Part shown: positions 11,349-35,590 of the stretch, piece after piece | Numbering within the stretch: the first letter of the stretch is position 1 | Layout of the letters: every line of letters begins with the position of its first letter | DNA from: Minisyncoccota bacterium | GTDB lineage: Bacteria > Patescibacteriota > Minisyncoccia > Phycocordibacterales > UBA9973 | Assembly (NCBI GenBank): GCA_041665925.1 | Contig: JBAYHW010000005.1 | Span: 13,819 to 77,818 of the forward strand | Direction of reading: 5' to 3' | DNA: 64,000 nt | Notes under the pieces: generated by a model | The model's database searches: none | Told to the model about the DNA's origin: nothing | The model's input: only the letters and a program-made list of their open reading frames with translations | Program-made: the position numbers and the translations under genes

Positions 11349-14207
11349 ATGTACCCAATGTCTACCAGTATAAAGTTTGAAGACAAATATGAGCATGAGT
11401 ATAAAAAGCTAAACAAAGCCCAAAGGGAGGCTGTGGACATTATAGATGGCCCAGTCATGGTTGTAGCAGGCCCTGGGACAGGCAAGACTCAAGTACTCGC
11501 TCTCCGCATCGCGCAGATTTTAAAGCAAACTGATACCAAAGGGGACAGCATTCTTTGTTTGACCTTTACGAATTCTGCAGTAGGAGCCATGCGTGAGCGC
11601 TTGGTGCGTTATATAGGTGAGGAGGGGAACAAGGTTAATATTTTTACTTTTCATAGCTTCGGTTTAGAAATTATAAAGAAGTTTTTTAAAGTTTTAGGTT
11701 TGCCGAACCCGCCGACACTTCTAGATGAATCCGAAAATGCTGTATTTTTTGACGAGATTTTAGCGAGTGAAGATTGGAAATTTCTTTCACCACGAGGAGA
11801 TAGAGCTCGATACTTTGAAGATTTAAAATCAATAGCCTCTCTTTTAAAACGAGAAAGAATTACGGTGGAAGATTTTACTCTGGCCGTAGAAGTGGAAATA
11901 AAAACCTTAAATGAGAGTGAAGATAGCATGTCTACCAGAGGAGCTCGCAAGGGGGAGCTCAGGCAGGAAGTGATAAAAGAAATTGAAGGCTTAGAGAAAA
12001 GTATAGAAGTCGCGCGATTTTTGAAAGTCTATGAGTCTCGAAAGACAGAAAAGAATATGATTGACTACGATGATATTCTAGAGAGCTTGGTTCGCATTGT
12101 GGAGACTTCCGATGACGCCAAGGCCCACATTCAGGAACAATATCTTTATGTTTTAGTAGATGAACACCAAGATTCCTCTCGGGTGCAAAATGAATTTCTC
12201 GCGCGCACTTGGGGGGAAGTGGAAGCACCAAATATATTTGTGGTGGGGGATGATCGCCAGCTTATTTACGGATTTGCCGGGGCTTCAATTGATCATTTCG
12301 TAGGGTTCCAGAAAACCTTTCCCGAAGCTAGGCTCGTACCTCTCTTAGAAAATTATCGCTCCACGCAAGTTATCCTTGATGCCGCTCACGCTCTTCTGCC
12401 TAGTGTTTTATCTAAAGAAAAGCTTATTAGTCAAAGTATAGAAACGCACCCTATTAAACTCATAGAAGCTCAGACTCCGCGTGAAGAAATATTTATGGCG
12501 GGGGAGGTGATAAAAAATAAAATTGCAGAAGGGCTTGATCCCAATGATTGTGCCTTACTTGTGCCCAAAAATGCACAAGCTCGTACGGCCCTCGAAATCC
12601 TGCACGAAATTGGGTTGCCTCTAACTCTTCAAGAATCACTTAATCTTTTTGACCAAAAAGAAGCACATGCATTGCTGAGAATACTTAAAATCATTTCTCG
12701 CGAGGATGCCCCGTCGCTTGCACTTTCTTTTCTAGACGAATTATCTGGCATACCACCCCTCGAAGCTCATAAATTCTTAGTACAGTTAAATATGCGTGAG
12801 CTTTCTTTAGATAGTTTATTAAAAGCTCCGAAAACTCTCTGGGGTGGTGGGGCCACAGAGATATGGCTTGGGAAACTTGCTAAATGGCGCAAAGATGCAC
12901 AAGGAAATGAGTTATCCGCACTTCTTAAAATTATTGGTCAGGAAATCTTGGATGAAAAAATTAAAAAGAAAAAGCTTGTACCCATTGAAGATATTGTCAC
13001 TACGTTTTTATCTCTTTTAGAAAAACGACCCGAGGCCTCCTTTGATGAGTTCGTGGCTTACTTGGAGAAGGTGGAAGAATATGGAGACCCTATTTCCCTT
13101 ATTACTGGAGAGAAGGATGGCGTGCGAGTACTCACGATGCATAGAGCTAAAGGGCTGGAATTTGATTTTGTGTGGATTGCCCACATGGACGAGCGCTCGC
13201 TTACTGGAGGACGGAGGTTCAATTTTTCTCTACCGGAGAATATTTTAGAAAAAATAGAAGAGCGAGACATTGATGCCGTCAAGCGCAAGCTTTTCGTGGC
13301 TATCACTCGGGCCAAGCGTTTCTGTACTCTTTCTTATGCATTCTCCTCGCATAAAGGACGAGAGCAAGAACTTACAAAAATTATTGCCGATCTTCCAACT
13401 GAAGTTTTTAAAAAAGAAAATGCAAAAATTATGAGGGGAGAAGAAAAAGAAGAGAAGGATTTTTCTGAGCTTAATAAAATGGTTAAAGATAAATATGCTG
13501 AGCGTTACATATCTGCTTCTTCTCTTAATAACTTCTTCGAATGTTCCCGGAAATGGTATTTCAGAAATTTACTCCAGATTCCAGAGCCCGAGAATGAGAA
13601 TTTGGTTTTTGGTAGTTTAGTGCATGCCGGGATTGACCAAATTATAAAATCTAACAAAATAATCCTTCCAGAGGATAAAAATGTATCCAAGGTTGTAAAG
13701 GCCTGGGCAGAAATACGCTTGTCGGAGCTAGCTCCTGATCGTTTGAGCGAACAGAGTGTATCTCTACGCGACGATAGATTCCCGCATCTTTCCATTTATG
13801 GCAGAATAGATTTGATTGAAAAATTAGAGAACAATGAAGTGCGGGTGACTGATTTTAAAACAGGTGGTGTTCGTAAAAAAAGTGAAATAGAAAAATTAGA
13901 CGACGAAGGGAGGATGAGTAATCACCTGCGTCAGCTTTCAATGTATTCTTATCTTTTAAACAAAAGTCCAAAATGGCAAGCGGAAGTGAAAGAGTCGCGA
14001 CTGGAATTCGTAGAGGCTAAAAATCCTAAAGATATCTTCTACAGTACAGAAATAACAAAAGAACAAATGGAGCTTCTAGTGAAAGACATTGAAGATTATG
14101 ATAAATTTATAAAAGAGGGTGAATGGATAAACAGACCATGCAATTATAATTCGTACGGCAAGAATACCGAGTGCGAATATTGCAAAATGGCAGAGATTTA
14201 CAAATAA
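11349..14207 (+). CDS. UvrD/PcrA-like SF1 helicase fused to a C-terminal PD-(D/E)xK RecB/Cas4-like nuclease domain with a Cys cluster (952 aa)
   Basis: Walker A AGPGTGKTQVL plus UvrD motifs (TFTNSAV, VLVDEHQDS, TMHRAKGLEFD). The C-terminal roughly 250 aa carry the nuclease motifs GRIDLIEK...TDFKTG and QLSMYSYLL, and four Cys residues (FECSRKW ... PCNYNSYGKNTECEYC), as in the AddB/Cas4 iron-sulfur nuclease fold. Confidence 0.8.
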   Translation: MYPMSTSIKFEDKYEHEYKKLNKAQREAVDIIDGPVMVVAGPGTGKTQVLALRIAQILKQTDTKGDSILCLTFTNSAVGAMRERLVRYIGEEGNKVNIFTFHSFGLEIIKKFFKVLGLPNPPTLLDESENAVFFDEILASEDWKFLSPRGDRARYFEDLKSIASLLKRERITVEDFTLAVEVEIKTLNESEDSMSTRGARKGELRQEVIKEIEGLEKSIEVARFLKVYESRKTEKNMIDYDDILESLVRIVETSDDAKAHIQEQYLYVLVDEHQDSSRVQNEFLARTWGEVEAPNIFVVGDDRQLIYGFAGASIDHFVGFQKTFPEARLVPLLENYRSTQVILDAAHALLPSVLSKEKLISQSIETHPIKLIEAQTPREEIFMAGEVIKNKIAEGLDPNDCALLVPKNAQARTALEILHEIGLPLTLQESLNLFDQKEAHALLRILKIISREDAPSLALSFLDELSGIPPLEAHKFLVQLNMRELSLDSLLKAPKTLWGGGATEIWLGKLAKWRKDAQGNELSALLKIIGQEILDEKIKKKKLVPIEDIVTTFLSLLEKRPEASFDEFVAYLEKVEEYGDPISLITGEKDGVRVLTMHRAKGLEFDFVWIAHMDERSLTGGRRFNFSLPENILEKIEERDIDAVKRKLFVAITRAKRFCTLSYAFSSHKGREQELTKIIADLPTEVFKKENAKIMRGEEKEEKDFSELNKMVKDKYAERYISASSLNNFFECSRKWYFRNLLQIPEPENENLVFGSLVHAGIDQIIKSNKIILPEDKNVSKVVKAWAEIRLSELAPDRLSEQSVSLRDDRFPHLSIYGRIDLIEKLENNEVRVTDFKTGGVRKKSEIEKLDDEGRMSNHLRQLSMYSYLLNKSPKWQAEVKESRLEFVEAKNPKDIFYSTEITKEQMELLVKDIEDYDKFIKEGEWINRPCNYNSYGKNTECEYCKMAEIYK

Positions 14208-14332
14208 TTTTTAAAATGATAATATCTAAATATGGTTATTAAGCGACAAGTAAACAGTTCTCCGGTACCTCCATCCACAAATTGGGTGGTTGGTTTTTGC
14301 GCTTAAATTCTCTTAAAAAATAAACGCAGACA

Positions 14333-14360
14333 CGGGCCACTCAAAAGGTGGTTCTTTTTT
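14333..14360 (+). terminator. Intrinsic terminator (GGGCCAC-loop-GTGGTTC followed by TTTTTT)
   Basis: Seen in the sequence downstream of the helicase gene and upstream of proB. Confidence 0.55.
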
Positions 14361-18280: not shown

Positions 18281-18511
18281 ATGTCAAATGACGAAGAGGT
18301 AAGTTTAAAAATGGGGGAGCATCATGTTAAAGATAATGGGCATACCCATGCATATGAGGCTCTAAAAAACATGAATGAAACGCAACGAGAACAGGTTTTT
18401 CATGCTGCGCGTCATTCTCCGGAAGGAGGGTTTTTTACTGCTCGCAAGGATGGAGTAGATCATCAATTCAGAATATCAAGTAATGGAACAATACATAAAG
18501 TATCACACTAA
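18281..18511 (+). CDS. Small His-rich hypothetical protein (76 aa) translationally coupled to pheS
   Basis: ORF whose TAA stop overlaps the pheS ATG (TAAATG). No family recognised. Confidence 0.4.
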   Translation: MSNDEEVSLKMGEHHVKDNGHTHAYEALKNMNETQREQVFHAARHSPEGGFFTARKDGVDHQFRISSNGTIHKVSH

Positions 18512-19219: not shown

Positions 19220-21028
19220 ATGAAATATTCTTACAACTGGCTGAAATGGTATATTCCAGATGCTCCAGAACCAGAAAAATTGGCGGATATTTTTACCTAC
19301 CACTTAGCCGAAGTTGAGAATTTAGAAAAATTACCGGATGGGGATACTGTTTTTGATATTAAAATTCTTCCAAATCGTGCACATGACCTACTTTCACATC
19401 AAGGCCTGGCACGAGAACTTTCTTCGCTTTTAAATATTGCATTTGTTGATCCGACGCCGAAATACAAAATCCCTGAATCTAAACCAAGTGATTTAAAAAT
19501 TGAAATAGAGAGCGAGAAATGCCGAAGATATTCTGGAAGAATAATTCGTAATGTAAAAGTGGGCCCAAGTCCAGAGTGGGTAGTAAAACATCTAGAATCT
19601 ATCGGGCAGAGAAGTATAAATAATATGGTGGATGCGGCGAATCTAGTGATGTTTGATTGCGGACAGCCGACGCACATTTTTGATTTAGATAAAGTACAAG
19701 AAAAGCTAGTGATTAGACAAGCCAAGGAGGGAGAAGAATTAACTACCTTAGATAATAAGGAATGTAAATTCAAATCGGCAGATATGGTCATCGCTGATGC
19801 AGAGAGGGCTCTCGCAGTTGCGGGGATTAAGGGAGGGAAGATAGCAGAGGTAGATAATAATACTAAAAACATTATTCTTGAGGTAGCGAATTTTGATCCG
19901 ACAGCTGTGCGCAAAACTGCACAATCATTAAATATATTTACAGATGCTAGAAAGCGTTTTGAAAATGACTTGTCACCAGAGCTTGTGTCGTACGCCATGC
20001 GAGAACTTTCGGCGCTTATTTTAGAAATGTGCCCTGAGGCTATTTTTGAAGATGTGGTGGATGTGTATCCAAAAAAGCAAGAACAACAAAAATTGAAATT
20101 CAGAACAGAGAAAATTTCAAAAGTTTTAGGGCTAGAAGTTTCCGTGGAAGAGATTAAGGATATTTTAAAAAGATACAATTTTTCATATACAGAAAAAGGG
20201 GGAGAATTTGAAATAGAGGTGCCCCACATGCGCTTGGATTTAAATATCGAAGAAGATATGGCTGAAGAAATAGGGCGAGTAATAGGCTACGATAAACTAA
20301 AAGGAGTGGTATCACATGTGGATTTCAAACCTAAGCAAAATGAGCTGTATACGAAAATAGTTTGGGCTAGGAATAAACTTAAAGAAGAGGGTTATAGCGA
20401 AAGCATGACCACAAGCTTTGCCAATAAGGGAGAAGTGGAGGTTATGGCTTCAGCTTCTGATAAAAATTTCTTACGCACGAATTTAACAGATGGACTAAAA
20501 GAAAGTATTAAATTAAATCAGACCAATGCTCCGCTTTTGGGGTTAGAAAAGATAAAAGTTTTTGAAATTGGGACAATATTTAAAAAGAGTGGGGAAGAAA
20601 TGCATATTGCTTACGGAGATAAAAAAGAGATAAAAGAAATAACATTAGATGAATATACTTCACAGATGGAGAAAAATTCTGTCGCTTTACCCGCAAGCGG
20701 GCTCCGACACGAGCAAAATTTTTCTCCATCTGCTTCACCAGTTTTTAAAATGTGGTCATTGTTTCCATTTATTGCGCGCGATGTTGCAGTGTGGGTGTCG
20801 GATACAGTCGAAAGTAATCAAGTTCTTAAAGTAATAAAGGAGAATGCTGGTGACATGGTAGTTCGAGGGCCGGAGCTTTTTGATGAATTTAAAAAAGATG
20901 GTAAAGTTTCCTATGCGTTTAGAATTGTTTTTCAGTCTTATGACAGAACTCTCACGGACACAGAAATAAATGAAGTGATGAACAAAATCTCTGAAAAAAT
21001 CAAAGCTAATGGTTGGGAAGTGAGGTAA
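19220..21028 (+). CDS. pheT: Phenylalanyl-tRNA synthetase beta subunit (reduced, 602 aa)
   Basis: B3/B4 and B5 domain signatures and a C-terminal FDX-ACB-like region. It immediately follows pheS. Confidence 0.85.
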   Translation: MKYSYNWLKWYIPDAPEPEKLADIFTYHLAEVENLEKLPDGDTVFDIKILPNRAHDLLSHQGLARELSSLLNIAFVDPTPKYKIPESKPSDLKIEIESEKCRRYSGRIIRNVKVGPSPEWVVKHLESIGQRSINNMVDAANLVMFDCGQPTHIFDLDKVQEKLVIRQAKEGEELTTLDNKECKFKSADMVIADAERALAVAGIKGGKIAEVDNNTKNIILEVANFDPTAVRKTAQSLNIFTDARKRFENDLSPELVSYAMRELSALILEMCPEAIFEDVVDVYPKKQEQQKLKFRTEKISKVLGLEVSVEEIKDILKRYNFSYTEKGGEFEIEVPHMRLDLNIEEDMAEEIGRVIGYDKLKGVVSHVDFKPKQNELYTKIVWARNKLKEEGYSESMTTSFANKGEVEVMASASDKNFLRTNLTDGLKESIKLNQTNAPLLGLEKIKVFEIGTIFKKSGEEMHIAYGDKKEIKEITLDEYTSQMEKNSVALPASGLRHEQNFSPSASPVFKMWSLFPFIARDVAVWVSDTVESNQVLKVIKENAGDMVVRGPELFDEFKKDGKVSYAFRIVFQSYDRTLTDTEINEVMNKISEKIKANGWEVR

Positions 21029-21065
21029 TTTCTATCCTATTTATATTTGTTTTGTATAATGGTAC

Positions 21066-21321
21066 ACTTTTATTTGGATGAAAGGGGGTGATACAATGCT
21101 GAGTGACCGGAGACACTGGCGAGAGGCTCAGAGTCGAGACGACCAAAATAAATGGTCTCGACTCCCTGGGGCCACGGTGTCCGTCGCTTCTCTCCTTCCC
21201 GACGGGGAGGGAGCGAAGACCGAGAATTGTCTCCCCGACGATTCTCCCTCCGATGAACAGTCGGAGGAAAGCTAGGGGACCAGGAGGCTGTCGCATCTGC
21301 GGCCGCCTCCTCTTCTTTTTT
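21066..21321 (+). ncRNA. GC-rich, highly structured transcription unit of about 255 nt with its own -10 box and intrinsic terminator. Candidate novel structured ncRNA. It alternatively encodes an acidic 59-aa ORF (21096-21275) preceded by the SD AAAGGGGGTGAT.
   Basis: TATAAT at 21055-21060 with an upstream TG. Perfect 10-bp hairpin GAGTCGAGAC/GTCTCGACTC. A 13-bp helix CTCCTTCCC-GACG-GGGAGGGAG. A CCTCCGA/TCGGAGG helix. Terminator AGGAGGC...GCCTCCT plus T-run at 21282-21321. About 60% GC against about 40% in the flanks. Confidence 0.45.
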
Positions 21322-21385
21322 ACCCAATTTTACAACACAAAATTCGCTAAAAATCACTAGCAAAATATATAGGTTTTTGGTATAA

Positions 21386-23476
<2,091 letters not shown>

Positions 23477-25344: not shown

Positions 25345-25488
25345 ATGACTCAGACGTACGGTGTCTTCAATCCGCCTCCGGAGTCCAAAAAAGCTCCGCG
25401 GTGGAAGATCATCGTCCTCATTCTGTCTGGGCTCGTTCTCGGTGGCGTTGGTTGGTACCAATTTGTCCACCTTGCGGCACAGCAGTAA
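25345..25488 (+). CDS. Small GC-rich single-TM peptide (47 aa), MTQTYGVFNPPPESKKAPRWKIIVLILSGLVLGGVGWYQFVHLAAQQ
   Basis: Strong SD GAAAGGAG 8 nt upstream of the ATG. A clean hydrophobic helix. A canonical terminator follows immediately. Not in the ORF track because it is under 60 aa. About 58% GC. Confidence 0.55.
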   Translation: MTQTYGVFNPPPESKKAPRWKIIVLILSGLVLGGVGWYQFVHLAAQQ

Positions 25489-29716: not shown

Positions 29717-29974
29717 ATGCGAAGTCGCCCCTTTGAGGAGACGATCCTCGAGACGATAAGCGAGATGTGCATTCCCCAGGTCGAACTGGTGGCCAATCTG
29801 ATACTTAGGACCACCATCAACAACAACCACGATGAGATTGCCGTCGCCTGGCGGGAGCGATGCCTGGAACTGGGACTCCGCGACCACATGGATGTGGTCG
29901 CGGCGCTCGAGTTTAAAAGGCGAAGTATCCAGCCCGCCTACAACGCTGTTTTCTCTGGCATTTTCGATCAGTAG
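29717..29974 (+). CDS. GC-rich hypothetical protein (85 aa), MRSRPFEETILETISEMCIPQVELVANLILRTT...
   Basis: Strong SD GGAAGGAGA 4 nt upstream of the ATG. Followed by the hairpin AGCCCG...CGGGCT plus a T-rich tract. About 55% GC. No family recognised. Confidence 0.45.
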   Translation: MRSRPFEETILETISEMCIPQVELVANLILRTTINNNHDEIAVAWRERCLELGLRDHMDVVAALEFKRRSIQPAYNAVFSGIFDQ

Positions 29975-30034: not shown

Positions 30035-30202
30035 TTATTTCTTCCAATCTTTAACCTGCACGCCACCTTGGATTTTAGTGACCACGAGCTTCTGCCGTTC
30101 TTTCCAGCCGAGTGCTCGCACGACTTCGATCGGCAGAGTCAAATAATATGACCCGCCCGACTGCTGTAGATTTCTAATTTTTGCATCTTTTATTTTTCTC
30201 AT
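30035..30202 (-). CDS. AbrB/MazE/SpoVT-fold (swapped-hairpin) small DNA-binding protein, 55 aa
   Basis: The minus-strand translation MRKIKDAKIRNLQQSGGSYYLTLPIEVVRALGWKERQKLVVTKIQGGVQVKDWKK shows the characteristic pattern: a G-rich turn followed by a LTIPKEIREKLGL-like strand-helix. Not in the ORF track because it is under 60 aa. Confidence 0.6.
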   Translation of the reverse strand: MRKIKDAKIRNLQQSGGSYYLTLPIEVVRALGWKERQKLVVTKIQGGVQVKDWKK

Positions 30203-30290: not shown

Positions 30291-30338
30291 GTATATACCA
30301 ATCCCTGGGGATATCCCTAGGGAAGTCCCTAGGGATTC
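30291..30338. promoter_or_regulatory. Operator-like repeat block: GTATATACCAATCCCTGGGGATATCCCTAGGGAAGTCCCTAGGGATTC, carrying tandem TCCCTAGGGA palindromes. Direct repeat of 31060-31096.
   Basis: It lies in the divergent region between the AbrB-like gene on the minus strand and the two small GC-rich ORFs on the plus strand. Confidence 0.6.
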
Positions 30339-30404: not shown

Positions 30405-30611
30405 ATGAATTATCGAGCAAAGATCAAGCGGGCCAGAGCCCGCCGGTACCACGAACGTTGGAAGGCAGCGCGACGCGCTGGCCTTCCCAAGGGCCCCAGC
30501 GGGACCACCAAGTCGAATCTGCTTCGGCCGAGCAAGCCGGTACGTCGGGCACACCAGAAGGAGGGGGACGGGTGGTGCCCCGAATGCTGGTCTTTCATGT
30601 GCCGGGCGTGA
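30405..30611 (+). CDS. GC-rich small basic protein (68 aa), Arg/Lys-rich, with C-terminal CPECWSFMC
   Basis: Strong SD GAAGGAGGAC 5 nt upstream of the ATG. A candidate -35/-10 pair (TGGACA ... TAGAAA) upstream. Confidence 0.45.
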   Translation: MNYRAKIKRARARRYHERWKAARRAGLPKGPSGTTKSNLLRPSKPVRRAHQKEGDGWCPECWSFMCRA

Positions 30612-30635: not shown

Positions 30636-30908
30636 ATGCACAAGGAGGAGGTTACCGTGTTCGTAATTGAGCATCTCGAGCAGTTTTGCCAAGACCACCC
30701 CGAGTTCTTCGGCGATAACACGCGTGAGTGTGTTATCGCCGAAGCCAAGAACCGGGCGAACGAGGAAGGAGTTCTCATGTCCGCTGAAGCCGAGAGCCTT
30801 CTCGGCCCGACTCTCGCGTTCCAGTTCTTCTCGGAGATGACTAGCACGAGCAAGCATCTCCAGATCAGCATGGAAGTTGCGGAGCGTCTGCGGAAGAGCG
30901 TTCGGTAA
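30636..30908 (+). CDS. GC-rich small acidic protein (84-90 aa). The probable start is the GTG at 30657, which is preceded by AAGGAGGAGG.
   Basis: An SD sits 5 nt before the in-frame GTG. The ORF is followed by the CCCCG...CGGGG hairpin and, further downstream, the terminator at 31019-31056. Confidence 0.4.
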   Translation: MHKEEVTVFVIEHLEQFCQDHPEFFGDNTRECVIAEAKNRANEEGVLMSAEAESLLGPTLAFQFFSEMTSTSKHLQISMEVAERLRKSVR

Positions 30909-35209: not shown

Positions 35210-35590
35210 ATGAAGAAGCTCATCGTCATCCTGGTGGCCGTGTTGGCCACCGCCTGCGCCACCACCGGCGTGAAGCTCGCGGAGCAGGCCGCTCCGCAGA
35301 CGGTTCTCTTCGCTGACGTGACCACCTGCCTCAAGGCGGCCATTGACGCAACACTGACTCCGACGGCGGCAGCGGAATTCTGTCTCGAGGCAAGACGTCT
35401 CGAAGCCGACCGCGCAAAAGCCACCGCCGAAGCAGCGGCCAAGGCGGAGGCGAACAAGCCGGCATGTGGGCTCTGCCTCATGCCGGGGACAGGATACGGA
35501 TACTACAACACGTATCCACCGCCTCCGCCGCGACCGATCGGCGGCTACACCAACACCGTCGTAGCATACACGGAACACAAGGTGAAGTAG
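35210..35590 (+). CDS. GC-rich small lipoprotein (126 aa) with lipobox LATAC, an Ala-rich helix and a C-terminal PPPPPRP/Tyr-rich tail
   Basis: SD AAAAGGAGA 8 nt upstream. Signal peptide MKKLIVILVAVLATAC. About 62% GC with high GC3. Its own promoter and terminator. Confidence 0.6.
   Translation: MKKLIVILVAVLATACATTGVKLAEQAAPQTVLFADVTTCLKAAIDATLTPTAAAEFCLEARRLEADRAKATAEAAAKAEANKPACGLCLMPGTGYGYYNTYPPPPPRPIGGYTNTVVAYTEHKVK

What the first reader, a model, noticed from the sequence alone, without database searches (positions are those of the whole stretch)
21040..21330. GC-rich, heavily base-paired ~255-nt unit between pheT and gyrB: candidate novel structured ncRNA or acquired micro-gene
The spacer carries a TATAAT box (21055-21060) and then about 250 nt at around 60% GC. 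It folds into at least four strong helices (10-bp perfect GAGUCGAGAC/GUCUCGACUC; 13-bp CUCCUUCCC..GGGAGGGAG; CCUCCGA/UCGGAGG; closing CUGAG/CUCAG). It ends in a textbook terminator that contains a NotI-like GCGGCCGC core. A 59-aa acidic ORF with a strong SD also fits, so coding versus non-coding is unresolved. I could not match it to RNase P, SRP, tmRNA, 6S or common riboswitch consensus sequences.
Basis: partly seen in the sequence, partly recalled or inferred. Interest (0 to 1): 0.7.

Follow-up and report, generated by a model that had tools for sequence, protein, structure and literature searches.

The report
Acquired hairpin-rich micro-gene beside gyrB
The GC-rich 290-base spacer between pheT and gyrB is most likely a small inserted gene for a 59-residue acidic peptide, with its own start and stop signals and an unusually hairpin-rich messenger RNA, and probably not a new non-coding RNA; it is a narrow orphan family of modest interest.

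Summary
There is a 60% GC island in a 39% GC Nomurabacteria-like (candidate phyla radiation, CPR) genome, with a TATAAT box, a 13-nt Shine-Dalgarno (SD), a 59-codon ORF, four strong hairpins and an intrinsic terminator. The fold is far more stable than shuffles (z -5.5). No Rfam family matches.

In 33 of 60 relatives, pheT's stop codon is followed directly by the gyrB promoter, so this unit is an insertion into a variable hot spot.

Only three homologues exist (L003, L032, L006). All four copies keep SD+ATG and the same open frame (52-62 codons). Protein similarity is best in that frame for two pairs, and the first ten codons differ mostly synonymously. Five other GC-rich islands in the window are also SD-led small ORFs; one has a transmembrane helix and one a lipoprotein signal. 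Native genes mostly lack an SD.

Hairpins H3 and H4 are nevertheless kept by compensatory changes that alter amino acids, and L006 retains them outside its ORF.

Verdict: an acquired micro-gene on a structured mRNA, about 0.6. Dual-function RNA or pure sRNA remain possible. It is a new member of a known kind, with modest interest.

The parts
21039..21060 (+). Promoter-like stretch directly after the pheT stop codon. The -10 box TATAAT lies at 21055-21060. The stretch is an imperfect direct repeat of the gyrB promoter stretch at 21365-21386.
   Evidence: Sequence. Direct repeat D2 is 77% identical with 326-nt spacing. No -35/-10 pair was found by the consensus scan.
21080..21092 (+). Extended Shine-Dalgarno GAAAGGGGGUGAU. 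All 13 nt pair with the canonical 16S 3' tail, allowing one G-U pair.
   Evidence: Duplex energy is -21.6 kcal/mol, the strongest of 54 ORF starts in the window. It is predicted mostly unpaired in the likely transcript: P(unpaired) 0.65 against 0.34 overall.
21096..21275 (+). 59-codon ORF (MLSDRRHWREAQSRDDQNKWSRLPG...SDEQSEES). It has a basic N-terminal segment and an acidic, probably disordered tail. An upstream in-frame ATG at 21078 would give 65 aa.
   Evidence: AlphaFold2 on the single sequence gives pLDDT 62.7, a helix at residues 3-21 and coil elsewhere.
21102..21188 (+). H1: a long irregular stem enclosing a perfect 10-bp hairpin (21131-21140/21155-21164).
   Evidence: Homologues have hairpins here, but of different sequence and size.
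21189..21216 (+). H2: CUCCUUCCC-GACG-GGGAGGGAG plus 2 outer pairs. The 5' arm is pyrimidine-rich and the 3' arm purine-rich.
   Evidence: In the alignment 75% of cells are paired, mostly with one-sided changes.
21222..21246 (+). H3: GAGAAUUGUC-UCCCC-GACGAUUCUC, the best-conserved hairpin. Its pentaloop is C/U-rich and resembles the anti-SD sequence.
   Evidence: 5 of 10 pairs show changes on both sides and 92.5% of cells are paired, across 4 sequences.
21247..21267 (+). H4: CCUCCGAU-GAACA-GUCGGAGG. In L003 and L032 the ORF's TAG stop lies in this loop; L006's noncoding remnant has a TAG at the same place.
   Evidence: 4 of 8 pairs show changes on both sides. Alignment.
21274..21321 (+). Intrinsic terminator: a bulged GC-rich stem-loop (core 21282-21311, containing GCGGCCGC) followed by CUUCUUUUUU.
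   Evidence: It is conserved in homologues with 88.7% of cells paired.
21322..21364 (+). AT-rich junction segment (ACCCAATTTTACAACACAAAATTCGCTAAAAATCACTAGCAAAA). It is shared with relatives that carry cargo and absent from empty sites.
   Evidence: Alignment A1 and the empty-site sequences.
21365..21397 (+). gyrB promoter: extended -10 TGGTATAAT, with TATAAT at 21381-21386. The gyrB ATG follows at 21395, so the mRNA is apparently leaderless. This marks the downstream boundary of the insert.

Best explanation
The region is a compact accessory gene unit of about 340 bp, inserted between pheT and gyrB in a Nomurabacteria-like (CPR) genome. In most relatives these two genes are separated only by the gyrB promoter.

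The unit reads as follows:
- a -10 box (21055-21060);
- an unusually long Shine-Dalgarno (21080-21092);
- a 59-codon ORF (21096-21275);
- an intrinsic terminator (21274-21321).

The product would be a small cytoplasmic peptide with a basic, possibly helical N-terminal segment (conserved motif M-x-S/T/N-D-R/L-R/K/E-H/N ... D ... P-G) and an acidic, disordered tail.

The mRNA is packed with stable hairpins. At least H3 and H4 are maintained by selection. The most likely roles are protecting the short transcript from degradation or tuning its translation.

Shown here: the insertion state, the signals, the conserved frame and the conserved hairpins. Inferred: transcription, translation, the role of the hairpins and what the peptide does. 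My guess for the peptide is binding to a partner through the acidic tail; no target is identified.
For: Insertion:
- pheT-gyrB synteny holds in 60 relatives. 33 have a compact spacer and 27 an expanded one with diverse cargo.
- In empty sites the pheT TAA is followed at once by TTTGCTATAAT and a leaderless gyrB ATG.
- The insert is bracketed by a 22-nt imperfect repeat of the -10 region.
- GC and GC3 are 0.59 and 0.62, against 0.37-0.43 and 0.32-0.43 for pheS, pheT and gyrB.

Coding:
- SD+ATG+ORF of 52-62 codons occurs in all four homologues, and this is the only one of six frames open in all four.
- In the first 10 codons, window versus L003 differ at 5 sites, 4 of them synonymous. The conserved Pro of the P-G motif uses CCT, CCG, CCC and CCA.
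- BLASTP is best in the ORF frame for window-L003 (2e-8). For L032-L006 it is significant only there (3e-4; 0 of 200 shuffles reach it).
- Public gene callers already call the L003, L006 and L032 ORFs.
- SD and AUG are predicted accessible.

Genome context:
- Five other GC-rich islands in the window are SD-led small ORFs. One is a 47-aa single-pass membrane protein and one a 126-aa protein with a lipoprotein signal.
- Native genes mostly lack an SD.

Structure:
- z is -5.5 to -9.6 in all four homologues.
- 83% of cells are paired, against 44-60% when partners are slid. 11 pairs have double-sided changes.
Against: - There are only four sequences, so both the coding test and the covariation test have little power.
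- The C-terminal half is poorly conserved and the stop position moves. In L006 the ORF ends before H2, and H2-H3-H4 survive as noncoding sequence.
- Compensatory changes in H3 alter amino acids (LPDD to SPNG), so RNA pairing outweighs peptide sequence there.
- GC3 is not higher than GC1, unlike the other islands.
- For L003-L032 a minus-strand frame scores as well as the ORF frame.
- The peptide is low-complexity. It has no Pfam, PHROG or NCBIfam match and no relative among 1.84 billion representative proteins.
- The promoter rests on a -10 box only.
- There are no expression data.
- Dinucleotide-shuffle z-scores of -3.8 to -4.4 also occur in two other island ORFs, including the lipoprotein ORF that clearly codes, so stability alone does not discriminate.
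Confidence: 0.6

Rival explanations
1. Dual-function RNA. The transcript is translated, but it also acts as a riboregulator. H3 presents a conserved C/U-rich pentaloop that resembles the anti-SD sequence (UCCCC, UCCCC, CACCU, UCCUC) on a covarying stem. This loop could pair with G-rich SD regions, which in this genome occur almost only on the GC-rich accessory genes. RNAIII and RsaE use C-rich loops in this way (from my own knowledge).
For: - The H3 stem covaries at 5 of 10 pairs while the loop stays C/U-rich.
- L006 keeps H2-H3-H4 outside its ORF.
- SD-bearing genes are restricted to the GC-rich islands.
- G-U pairs favour the + strand RNA: -116.6 against -95.9 kcal/mol.
Against: - No target was identified.
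- Loop complementarity to the unit's own SD is not consistent across the four homologues (my inspection).
- A 5-nt loop is a weak seed.
- Four sequences are too few.
- No chaperone and no expression data are available.
Confidence: 0.15
2. Purely non-coding structured sRNA of about 255 nt. On this reading the ORF is a by-product of GC-rich sequence, which contains few stop codons. The long SD-like stretch would be an RNA-RNA or 30S-binding site.
For: - Stability is extreme, and H3 and H4 show compensatory changes.
- Several other frames are also open in the window and in L003.
- The 13-nt SD (-21.6 kcal/mol) is stronger than typical translation signals (the comparison with typical signals is from my own knowledge).
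- No protein family was found.
Against: - The ORF frame is the only one open in all four homologues.
- An ATG at proper spacing from an SD occurs in all four.
- The N-terminal part shows a synonymous substitution pattern.
- L032-L006 similarity is seen only in the ORF frame.
- The other islands in the window are clearly small protein genes.
- No Rfam match.
Confidence: 0.12
3. Functionless remnant or DNA-level palindromic insert. It would be a decaying piece of foreign DNA, or a cluster of hairpins like a MITE, a REP element or a mitochondrial GC cluster. The hairpins would be kept or regenerated by templated correction of near-palindromes, without selection on RNA or protein.
For: - The hot spot turns over quickly, with unrelated cargo in different relatives.
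- L006 carries a partial 3' copy behind a complete ORF.
- The insert is flanked by imperfect direct repeats.
- The hairpin register shifts between homologues in H4 (my inspection).
Against: - The unit is single-copy. There are no related hairpins elsewhere in the 64-kb window or in 82 related loci beyond positional homologues.
- ORF, SD and terminator are intact in four genomes whose pheT proteins are only 67-72% identical to the window's.
- The + strand is favoured over the - strand, which a DNA palindrome would not explain.
Confidence: 0.1

Closest known systems
Phage 'morons': autonomous promoter-ORF-terminator units inserted between neighbouring genes (concept from lambdoid phage genomics; from my own knowledge)
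   Same: - It is a compact unit with its own -10 box, RBS and terminator.
- Its base composition is unlike its surroundings (59% against about 40% GC).
- It sits between two genes that are directly adjacent in relatives.
   Different: - It lies in a bacterial chromosome between housekeeping genes, not in a prophage.
- There are no phage or plasmid DNA matches and no PHROG match.
- The mechanism of insertion is unknown.
Dual-function sRNAs such as S. aureus RNAIII/hld, B. subtilis SR1/SR1P and E. coli SgrS/SgrT (from my own knowledge)
   Same: - It would be a transcript of about 250 nt with its own promoter and terminator.
- It combines a small ORF with several stable hairpins.
- It has a C-rich hairpin loop on a covarying stem.
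   Different: - The ORF fills about 70% of the transcript.
- No target, no seed conservation test and no expression data are available.
- It is not homologous to any Rfam family.
Unannotated sORFs found in GC-rich intergenic regions of AT-rich genomes (GC-IGR surveys; PMC6429828)
   Same: - It is a long GC-rich intergenic region in an AT-rich genome that turns out to hold a short ORF with an RBS.
- That survey reports that about a quarter of the unknown intergenic regions carried uORFs or sORFs and about a third were unannotated protein genes.
   Different: Here the ORF coexists with hairpins supported by compensatory change. The survey's pipeline would keep such a case as a possible RNA motif.
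Palindromic mobile GC-rich elements in AT-rich genomes: REP/BIME, Rickettsia palindromic elements, yeast mitochondrial GC clusters (from my own knowledge)
   Same: GC-rich hairpins embedded in AT-rich DNA, and an insertion polymorphism between relatives.
   Different: - It is single-copy and no repeat family was found.
- It carries translation and termination signals and a conserved frame.
Integron gene cassettes with attC sites (from my own knowledge)
   Same: Variable small-ORF cargo at one site, with a 3' module that is conserved in structure but poorly conserved in sequence.
   Different: - The flanking genes are pheS, pheT, gyrB and thrS, so there is no integrase.
- The units carry their own promoters and terminators.
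- The + strand RNA fold is favoured.

Membership tests
Any curated Rfam family (RNase P, SRP, tmRNA, 6S, riboswitches, sRNAs) | Covariance-model score at or above the family's gathering threshold | tested here: not met
   The whole window gave only two tRNAs. A permissive scan of 20950-21450 gave a best score of 19 bits against thresholds of 60-70. Thirteen related loci gave nothing.
Structured non-coding RNA (generic) | Secondary structure conserved through compensatory substitutions | tested here: met
   5 of 10 pairs in H3 and 4 of 8 in H4 have double-sided changes. 83% of cells are paired, against 44-60% in slid controls. Only 4 sequences were available, and the structure was derived from the window sequence.
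Structured non-coding RNA (generic) | No conserved reading frame or translation signals | tested here: not met
   SD+ATG and the same frame are open in all four homologues, and no other frame is.
Small protein-coding gene (sORF) | Ribosome-binding site at functional spacing from a start codon, and accessible | tested here: met
   GAAAGGGGGUGAU, with its core 7 nt from ATG, gives -21.6 kcal/mol. P(unpaired) is 0.65 for the SD and 0.69 for the AUG. The 16S tail sequence was assumed to be canonical.
Small protein-coding gene (sORF) | Frame conserved among homologues despite indels | tested here: met
   ORFs of 59, 52, 62 and 59 codons. The +0 frame has only its terminal stop in all four.
Small protein-coding gene (sORF) | Substitution pattern and similarity favour the protein frame | tested here: inconclusive
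   In favour: 4 of 5 N-terminal differences are synonymous; window-L003 is best in +0; L032-L006 is significant only in +0. Against: L003-L032 scores as well on a minus-strand frame, and N-terminal differences by codon position are 58/71/90, only a mild excess at position 3.
Small protein-coding gene (sORF) | Peptide or ribosome footprints detected | not testable with these tools
   No expression data are available.
Moron-like autonomous insert | Flanking genes directly adjacent in relatives | tested here: met
   33 of 60 relatives have a compact spacer: TAA, then TGnTATAAT, then the gyrB ATG.
Moron-like autonomous insert | Own promoter | tested here: inconclusive
   TATAAT lies at 21055-21060 and resembles the gyrB promoter stretch. 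No -35/-10 pair was found by the scan, and there is no transcript map.
Moron-like autonomous insert | Own terminator and deviant base composition | tested here: met
Moron-like autonomous insert | Phage or prophage context | tested here: not met
   No match in viral contigs, phage genomes or PHROGs. The neighbours are housekeeping genes.
Dual-function sRNA | Base-pairing seed with identified target mRNAs | not testable with these tools
   The only observation is a C/U-rich H3 loop in all four homologues.
REP/MITE/GC-cluster palindromic repeats | Multiple related copies in the genome | tested here: not met
   No related hairpin family was found in the 64-kb window. The covariance-model search of the window and 82 loci found only the four homologues, weak positional hits and generic terminators. 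Only 64 kb of this genome could be seen.
Integron cassette / attC | Integron integrase and attI next to the array | tested here: not met
   The neighbours within about 4 kb are a UvrD-like helicase, a rhodanese-domain gene, pheS, pheT, gyrB and thrS in the relatives. The ORFs are the same in the window.

The most novel reading that the evidence does not exclude
The unit would be one of a set of GC-rich micro-genes carrying strong SDs that live in a genome whose own genes are largely SD-less or leaderless. Its transcript would do double duty. The 13-nt SD would capture 30S subunits. The covarying hairpin H3, with its loop resembling the anti-SD sequence, would regulate SD-dependent translation of the accessory gene set. 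In relatives the family sits behind a conserved attenuator-like leader (the 'UP element'), so the whole hot spot would be a regulated cassette system of a kind not yet described in CPR bacteria.
Probability: 0.1. Interest if true: 0.65.

Novelty: new member of a known kind. Interest (0 to 1): 0.35.

Why it matters
If the main reading is right, this is an unannotated orphan small-protein gene, one of several foreign-looking micro-genes in a reduced CPR genome. Its value is mainly for annotation and for understanding how tiny symbiont genomes take up and express accessory genes at hot spots.

Two things are somewhat unusual and could repay study:
- RNA hairpins are kept by compensatory change inside a coding region.
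- Strong Shine-Dalgarno sequences are confined to the GC-rich inserts in an otherwise largely SD-less genome.

The conserved 'UP' leader/sRNA found in relatives at the same site is a separate candidate RNA motif that no Rfam family covers.

Tried and rejected
- **Rfam.** Gathering and permissive thresholds on the window, the target and 13 related loci gave nothing.
- **Metagenome scan.** The pattern GTCTCCYCGACGA-N30-55-GGAGGCTG hit 85 stretches. Only one (L094) matched the element by nhmmer, and it scored identically to L003; the other loci checked gave no match, and most are much more GC-rich contigs. The same pattern gave 0 hits in viral contigs.
- **Phage and plasmid collections.** blastn found no match.
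- **Protein searches.** The 65-aa ORF gave no candidate. The 59-aa ORF against 1.84 billion representatives gave one 517-aa hit matched in five separate stretches at E=2e-4, which I take to be spurious. A profile of the four ORFs returned only the three known members. Pfam, PHROGs and NCBIfam gave nothing.
- **Structure prediction.** AlphaFold2 on the single sequence had low confidence, so I ran no fold search.
- **Covariance model.** A model of H2 through the terminator found no paralogues. It gave only weak positional hits in L015, L008 and L009, plus generic terminators.
- **More relatives.** Extra look-ups (L166, L167, L172-L174) gave four empty sites and one with unrelated cargo.
- **Replication-origin idea**, prompted by a DnaA-box-like GTTTTCCACA in relatives. 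The window has 9 such boxes against 7 expected and no skew switch, so I dropped it.
- **MITE/REP idea.** No repeat family was found.
- **gyrB leader or attenuator idea.** Rejected, because a terminator and a separate conserved gyrB promoter follow the unit.
- **Gyrase-inhibitor (YacG-like) idea.** It rests only on adjacency and an acidic tail, with no zinc-finger motif, so I did not pursue it.

Full report
**What is there.** The window is a 39.3% GC genome. Its pheT protein is identical to a public 'Candidatus Paceibacterota' protein (P0001), and its nearest relatives are Nomurabacteria and Paceibacterota MAGs at 75% pheT identity or less. Between pheT (19220-21028) and gyrB (21395-23476) lies a 366-nt spacer. 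Its core, 21100-21299, is 60% GC.

The spacer holds the following features:
- TATAAT at 21055-21060;
- GAAAGGGGGTGAT at 21080-21092;
- an ATG at 21096 opening a 59-codon ORF that ends at 21275;
- H1, a compound stem at 21102-21188 with a perfect 10-bp core;
- three hairpins: H2 at 21189-21216, H3 at 21222-21246 and H4 at 21247-21267;
- a bulged GC-rich stem-loop followed by a U-run at 21274-21321.

The + strand folds at -126.5 kcal/mol (z -5.5, 0 of 200 shuffles as stable). The - strand gives z -2.5. G-U pairs favour the + strand in all four homologues.

H2 is 9+2 bp and not 13. The 'closing CUGAG/CUCAG' helix is not in the predicted fold. H3 was overlooked. No Rfam family matches at any threshold.

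**The site is an insertion hot spot.** Eighty loci around pheT homologues were fetched. In 60 of them gyrB follows pheT on the same strand. Of these, 33 have a compact spacer and 27 an expanded one of 450-3700 nt.

In the compact state the pheT stop codon is followed at once by TTTGCTATAAT, and the gyrB ATG lies 10-11 nt further on, which implies a leaderless gyrB mRNA. The expanded spacers hold unrelated cargo:
- small GC-rich ORFs, some sharing a zinc-ribbon-like CxxC...EEYDP motif (L008, L018);
- ordinary genes of 360-860 aa;
- other small ORFs in a further relative, L173.

The window's unit is thus an insertion relative to the common state. It is bracketed by a 22-nt imperfect direct repeat that contains the -10 box (21039-21060 and 21365-21386, 77% identical). 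Its GC3 is 0.62, against 0.32-0.43 for pheS, pheT and gyrB.

**Homologues.** nhmmer found the element only in L003, L032 and L006. L015, L022 and L009 share only the terminator and gyrB-promoter end. Further searching added nothing:
- A metagenome scan with a pattern spanning H3 and the terminator returned 85 stretches, of which only one matched the element, and it scored identically to L003.
- Viral, phage and plasmid collections gave nothing.
- A covariance model of H2 through the terminator found no paralogue in the window or in 82 loci. It gave only weak positional hits in L015, L008 and L009.

The family is therefore very narrow.

**Evidence that it codes.**
- All four homologues have an SD, a correctly spaced ATG and an ORF of 52-62 codons.
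- Of the six frames, only this one is open in all four.
- In the first ten codons, window and L003 differ at five sites, four of them synonymous. Conserved D, S, P and G positions use different synonymous codons; Pro uses CCT, CCG, CCC and CCA.
- BLASTP similarity is best in the ORF frame for window-L003 (2e-8). For L032-L006 it is significant only there (3e-4 over the full length; 0 of 200 shuffles reach it). For L003-L032 a minus-strand frame does as well.
- Public pipelines already call the L003, L006 and L032 ORFs.
- In the likely transcript the SD and AUG are predicted accessible.

Context supports the same reading. Five other GC-rich islands in this window are each an SD-led small ORF followed by a hairpin:
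- 25345-25488 encodes a 47-aa protein with one clear transmembrane helix;
- 35210-35590 encodes a 126-aa protein with a lipoprotein signal and a Cys;
- the others are 29717-29974, 30405-30611 and 30636-30908.

By contrast, 43 of 48 long native ORFs have almost no complementarity to the canonical anti-SD sequence. The island ORFs hold four of the five strongest SDs, and the target is first at -21.6 kcal/mol. Two caveats apply: ORF starts were taken mechanically, and the 16S tail was assumed.

The GC-IGR literature reports that roughly a quarter of such unknown intergenic regions hold uORFs or sORFs and about a third hold unannotated protein genes (PMC6429828).

**Evidence that RNA structure matters.**
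- All four homologues fold into the same series of hairpins, with z-scores from -4.0 to -9.6.
- On an alignment of H2 through the terminator, 83% of cells pair, against 44-60% when partners are slid. 11 pairs carry changes on both sides, against 1-7 in the slid controls. H3 has 5 of 10 such pairs and H4 has 4 of 8.
- In H3 the changes from L003 to L032 (U-A to C-G and C-G to U-A) turn LPDD into SPNG, so pairing is kept at the expense of the peptide.
- L006 has a complete 59-codon ORF that ends before H2. It is followed by a noncoding copy of H2-H3-H4 and the terminator, and H3 is still perfect there.
- The H3 loop is C/U-rich in all four: UCCCC, UCCCC, CACCU and UCCUC.

There are cautions. Only four sequences are available, and the tested structure was derived from the window sequence. 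The H4 register shifts in L032 and L006. Other island ORFs also reach z-scores of -3.8 to -4.4.

**The peptide.** It has no Pfam, PHROG or NCBIfam match and no credible relative among 1.84 billion representative proteins. Its net charge is about -6: the N-terminal 22 residues sum to +2 and the rest to -8. AlphaFold2 without an alignment gives pLDDT 62.7, with a helix at residues 3-21 and coil elsewhere. Its function cannot be assigned. My working guess is that the acidic tail binds a partner.

**Verdict.** The most likely reading (about 0.6) is an acquired, self-contained micro-gene whose short mRNA is stabilised or tuned by conserved hairpins. The rivals are a dual-function RNA (about 0.15), a purely non-coding sRNA (about 0.12), and a functionless or DNA-level palindromic remnant (about 0.1). 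It is a new member of a known kind: an orphan sORF, or moron-like insert, in a variable hot spot. Interest is modest.

**Side finding.** In 24 of the 82 related loci the spacer begins with a conserved element of about 200 nt, in 29 copies; I call it UP. It consists of:
- a DnaA-box-like GTTTTCCACA;
- a promoter with TTTACA, a 17-nt spacer and TGnTATAAT;
- an RNA that can form either a long hairpin or a terminator, using the same CAGCC segment.

It precedes the variable cargo, and in L032 it directly precedes the target-family ORF. The window's pheT-gyrB spacer lacks it. A weak copy with compensatory changes lies at 14207-14360. No Rfam family matches it.

Noticed in passing
L006:5849-6100 and 28 further copies in 24 related loci (e.g. 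L003:5826-6029, L032:5868-6098); weak copy at window 14207-14360 (+): A conserved 'UP element' of about 200 nt sits right after pheT in relatives with an expanded spacer, sometimes in two copies flanking cargo. It has a DnaA-box-like GTTTTCCACA and a promoter (TTTACA, 17 nt, TGnTATAAT). Its RNA of about 150 nt can form either a long hairpin (GAAGGCUG...CAGCCCUC) or a terminator (ACCAGCC/GGCUGGU plus a U-run). RNAalifold predicts 21 pairs, 9 with double-sided changes. No Rfam family matches. It looks like an attenuator, a riboswitch-like leader or an sRNA.
   Followed up: partly
window 25345-25488, 29717-29974, 30405-30611, 30636-30908, 35210-35590 (all +): Five more GC-rich (54-64% GC, GC3 0.62-0.76) small ORFs have strong Shine-Dalgarno sequences. 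Some are followed by hairpins or terminators. One is a 47-aa single-pass membrane protein and one a 126-aa protein with a lipoprotein signal. None has a Pfam, PHROG or NCBIfam match. They look like the same class of acquired micro-genes as the target.
   Followed up: partly
window-wide; e.g. gyrB -10 box at 21381-21386 and ATG at 21395: Native genes in this window mostly lack a recognisable Shine-Dalgarno (43 of 48 long ORFs are weaker than -6.5 kcal/mol against the canonical anti-SD). Several appear leaderless, with TGnTATAAT about 10 nt before the ATG; this arrangement is conserved for gyrB across relatives. Start codons were assigned mechanically, and the 16S tail was assumed.
   Followed up: partly
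pheT-gyrB spacer in L001-L080, L166, L167, L172-L174: The pheT-gyrB junction is a cargo hot spot in this lineage. 33 relatives are compact and 27 expanded (450-3700 nt), with unrelated contents. L008 and L018 carry small proteins sharing a CxxC...EEYDP...H.C zinc-ribbon-like motif. L022, L024 and L173 carry other orphan small ORFs.
   Followed up: partly
L003:6040-6240: L003 carries a second GC-rich unit upstream of the target homologue. It has the SD AAAAAGGGGGGAGAG and a 48-aa acidic ORF (MEEIIAPEREHRLEIELAAERARISQ...). It also folds unusually well (z -5.0) and is called as a gene in public data.
   Followed up: no
window 30035-30202 (-) and 30300-30337: A 55-aa MazE/AbrB-like antitoxin ORF (Pfam PF04014, E=5.6e-5, just below the gathering score) lies next to the 30.4-31.0 kb GC-rich island. 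A 22-nt palindrome (AATCCCTGGGGATATCCCTAGG...) lies between them. The region 29.7-31.0 kb looks like a second variable island.
   Followed up: no
window 18281-18511 (+): A 76-aa ORF with no Pfam match lies just upstream of pheS. A gene of 76-88 aa is called at the same position in several relatives (L172-L174), so it is probably a conserved small protein of this lineage.
   Followed up: no
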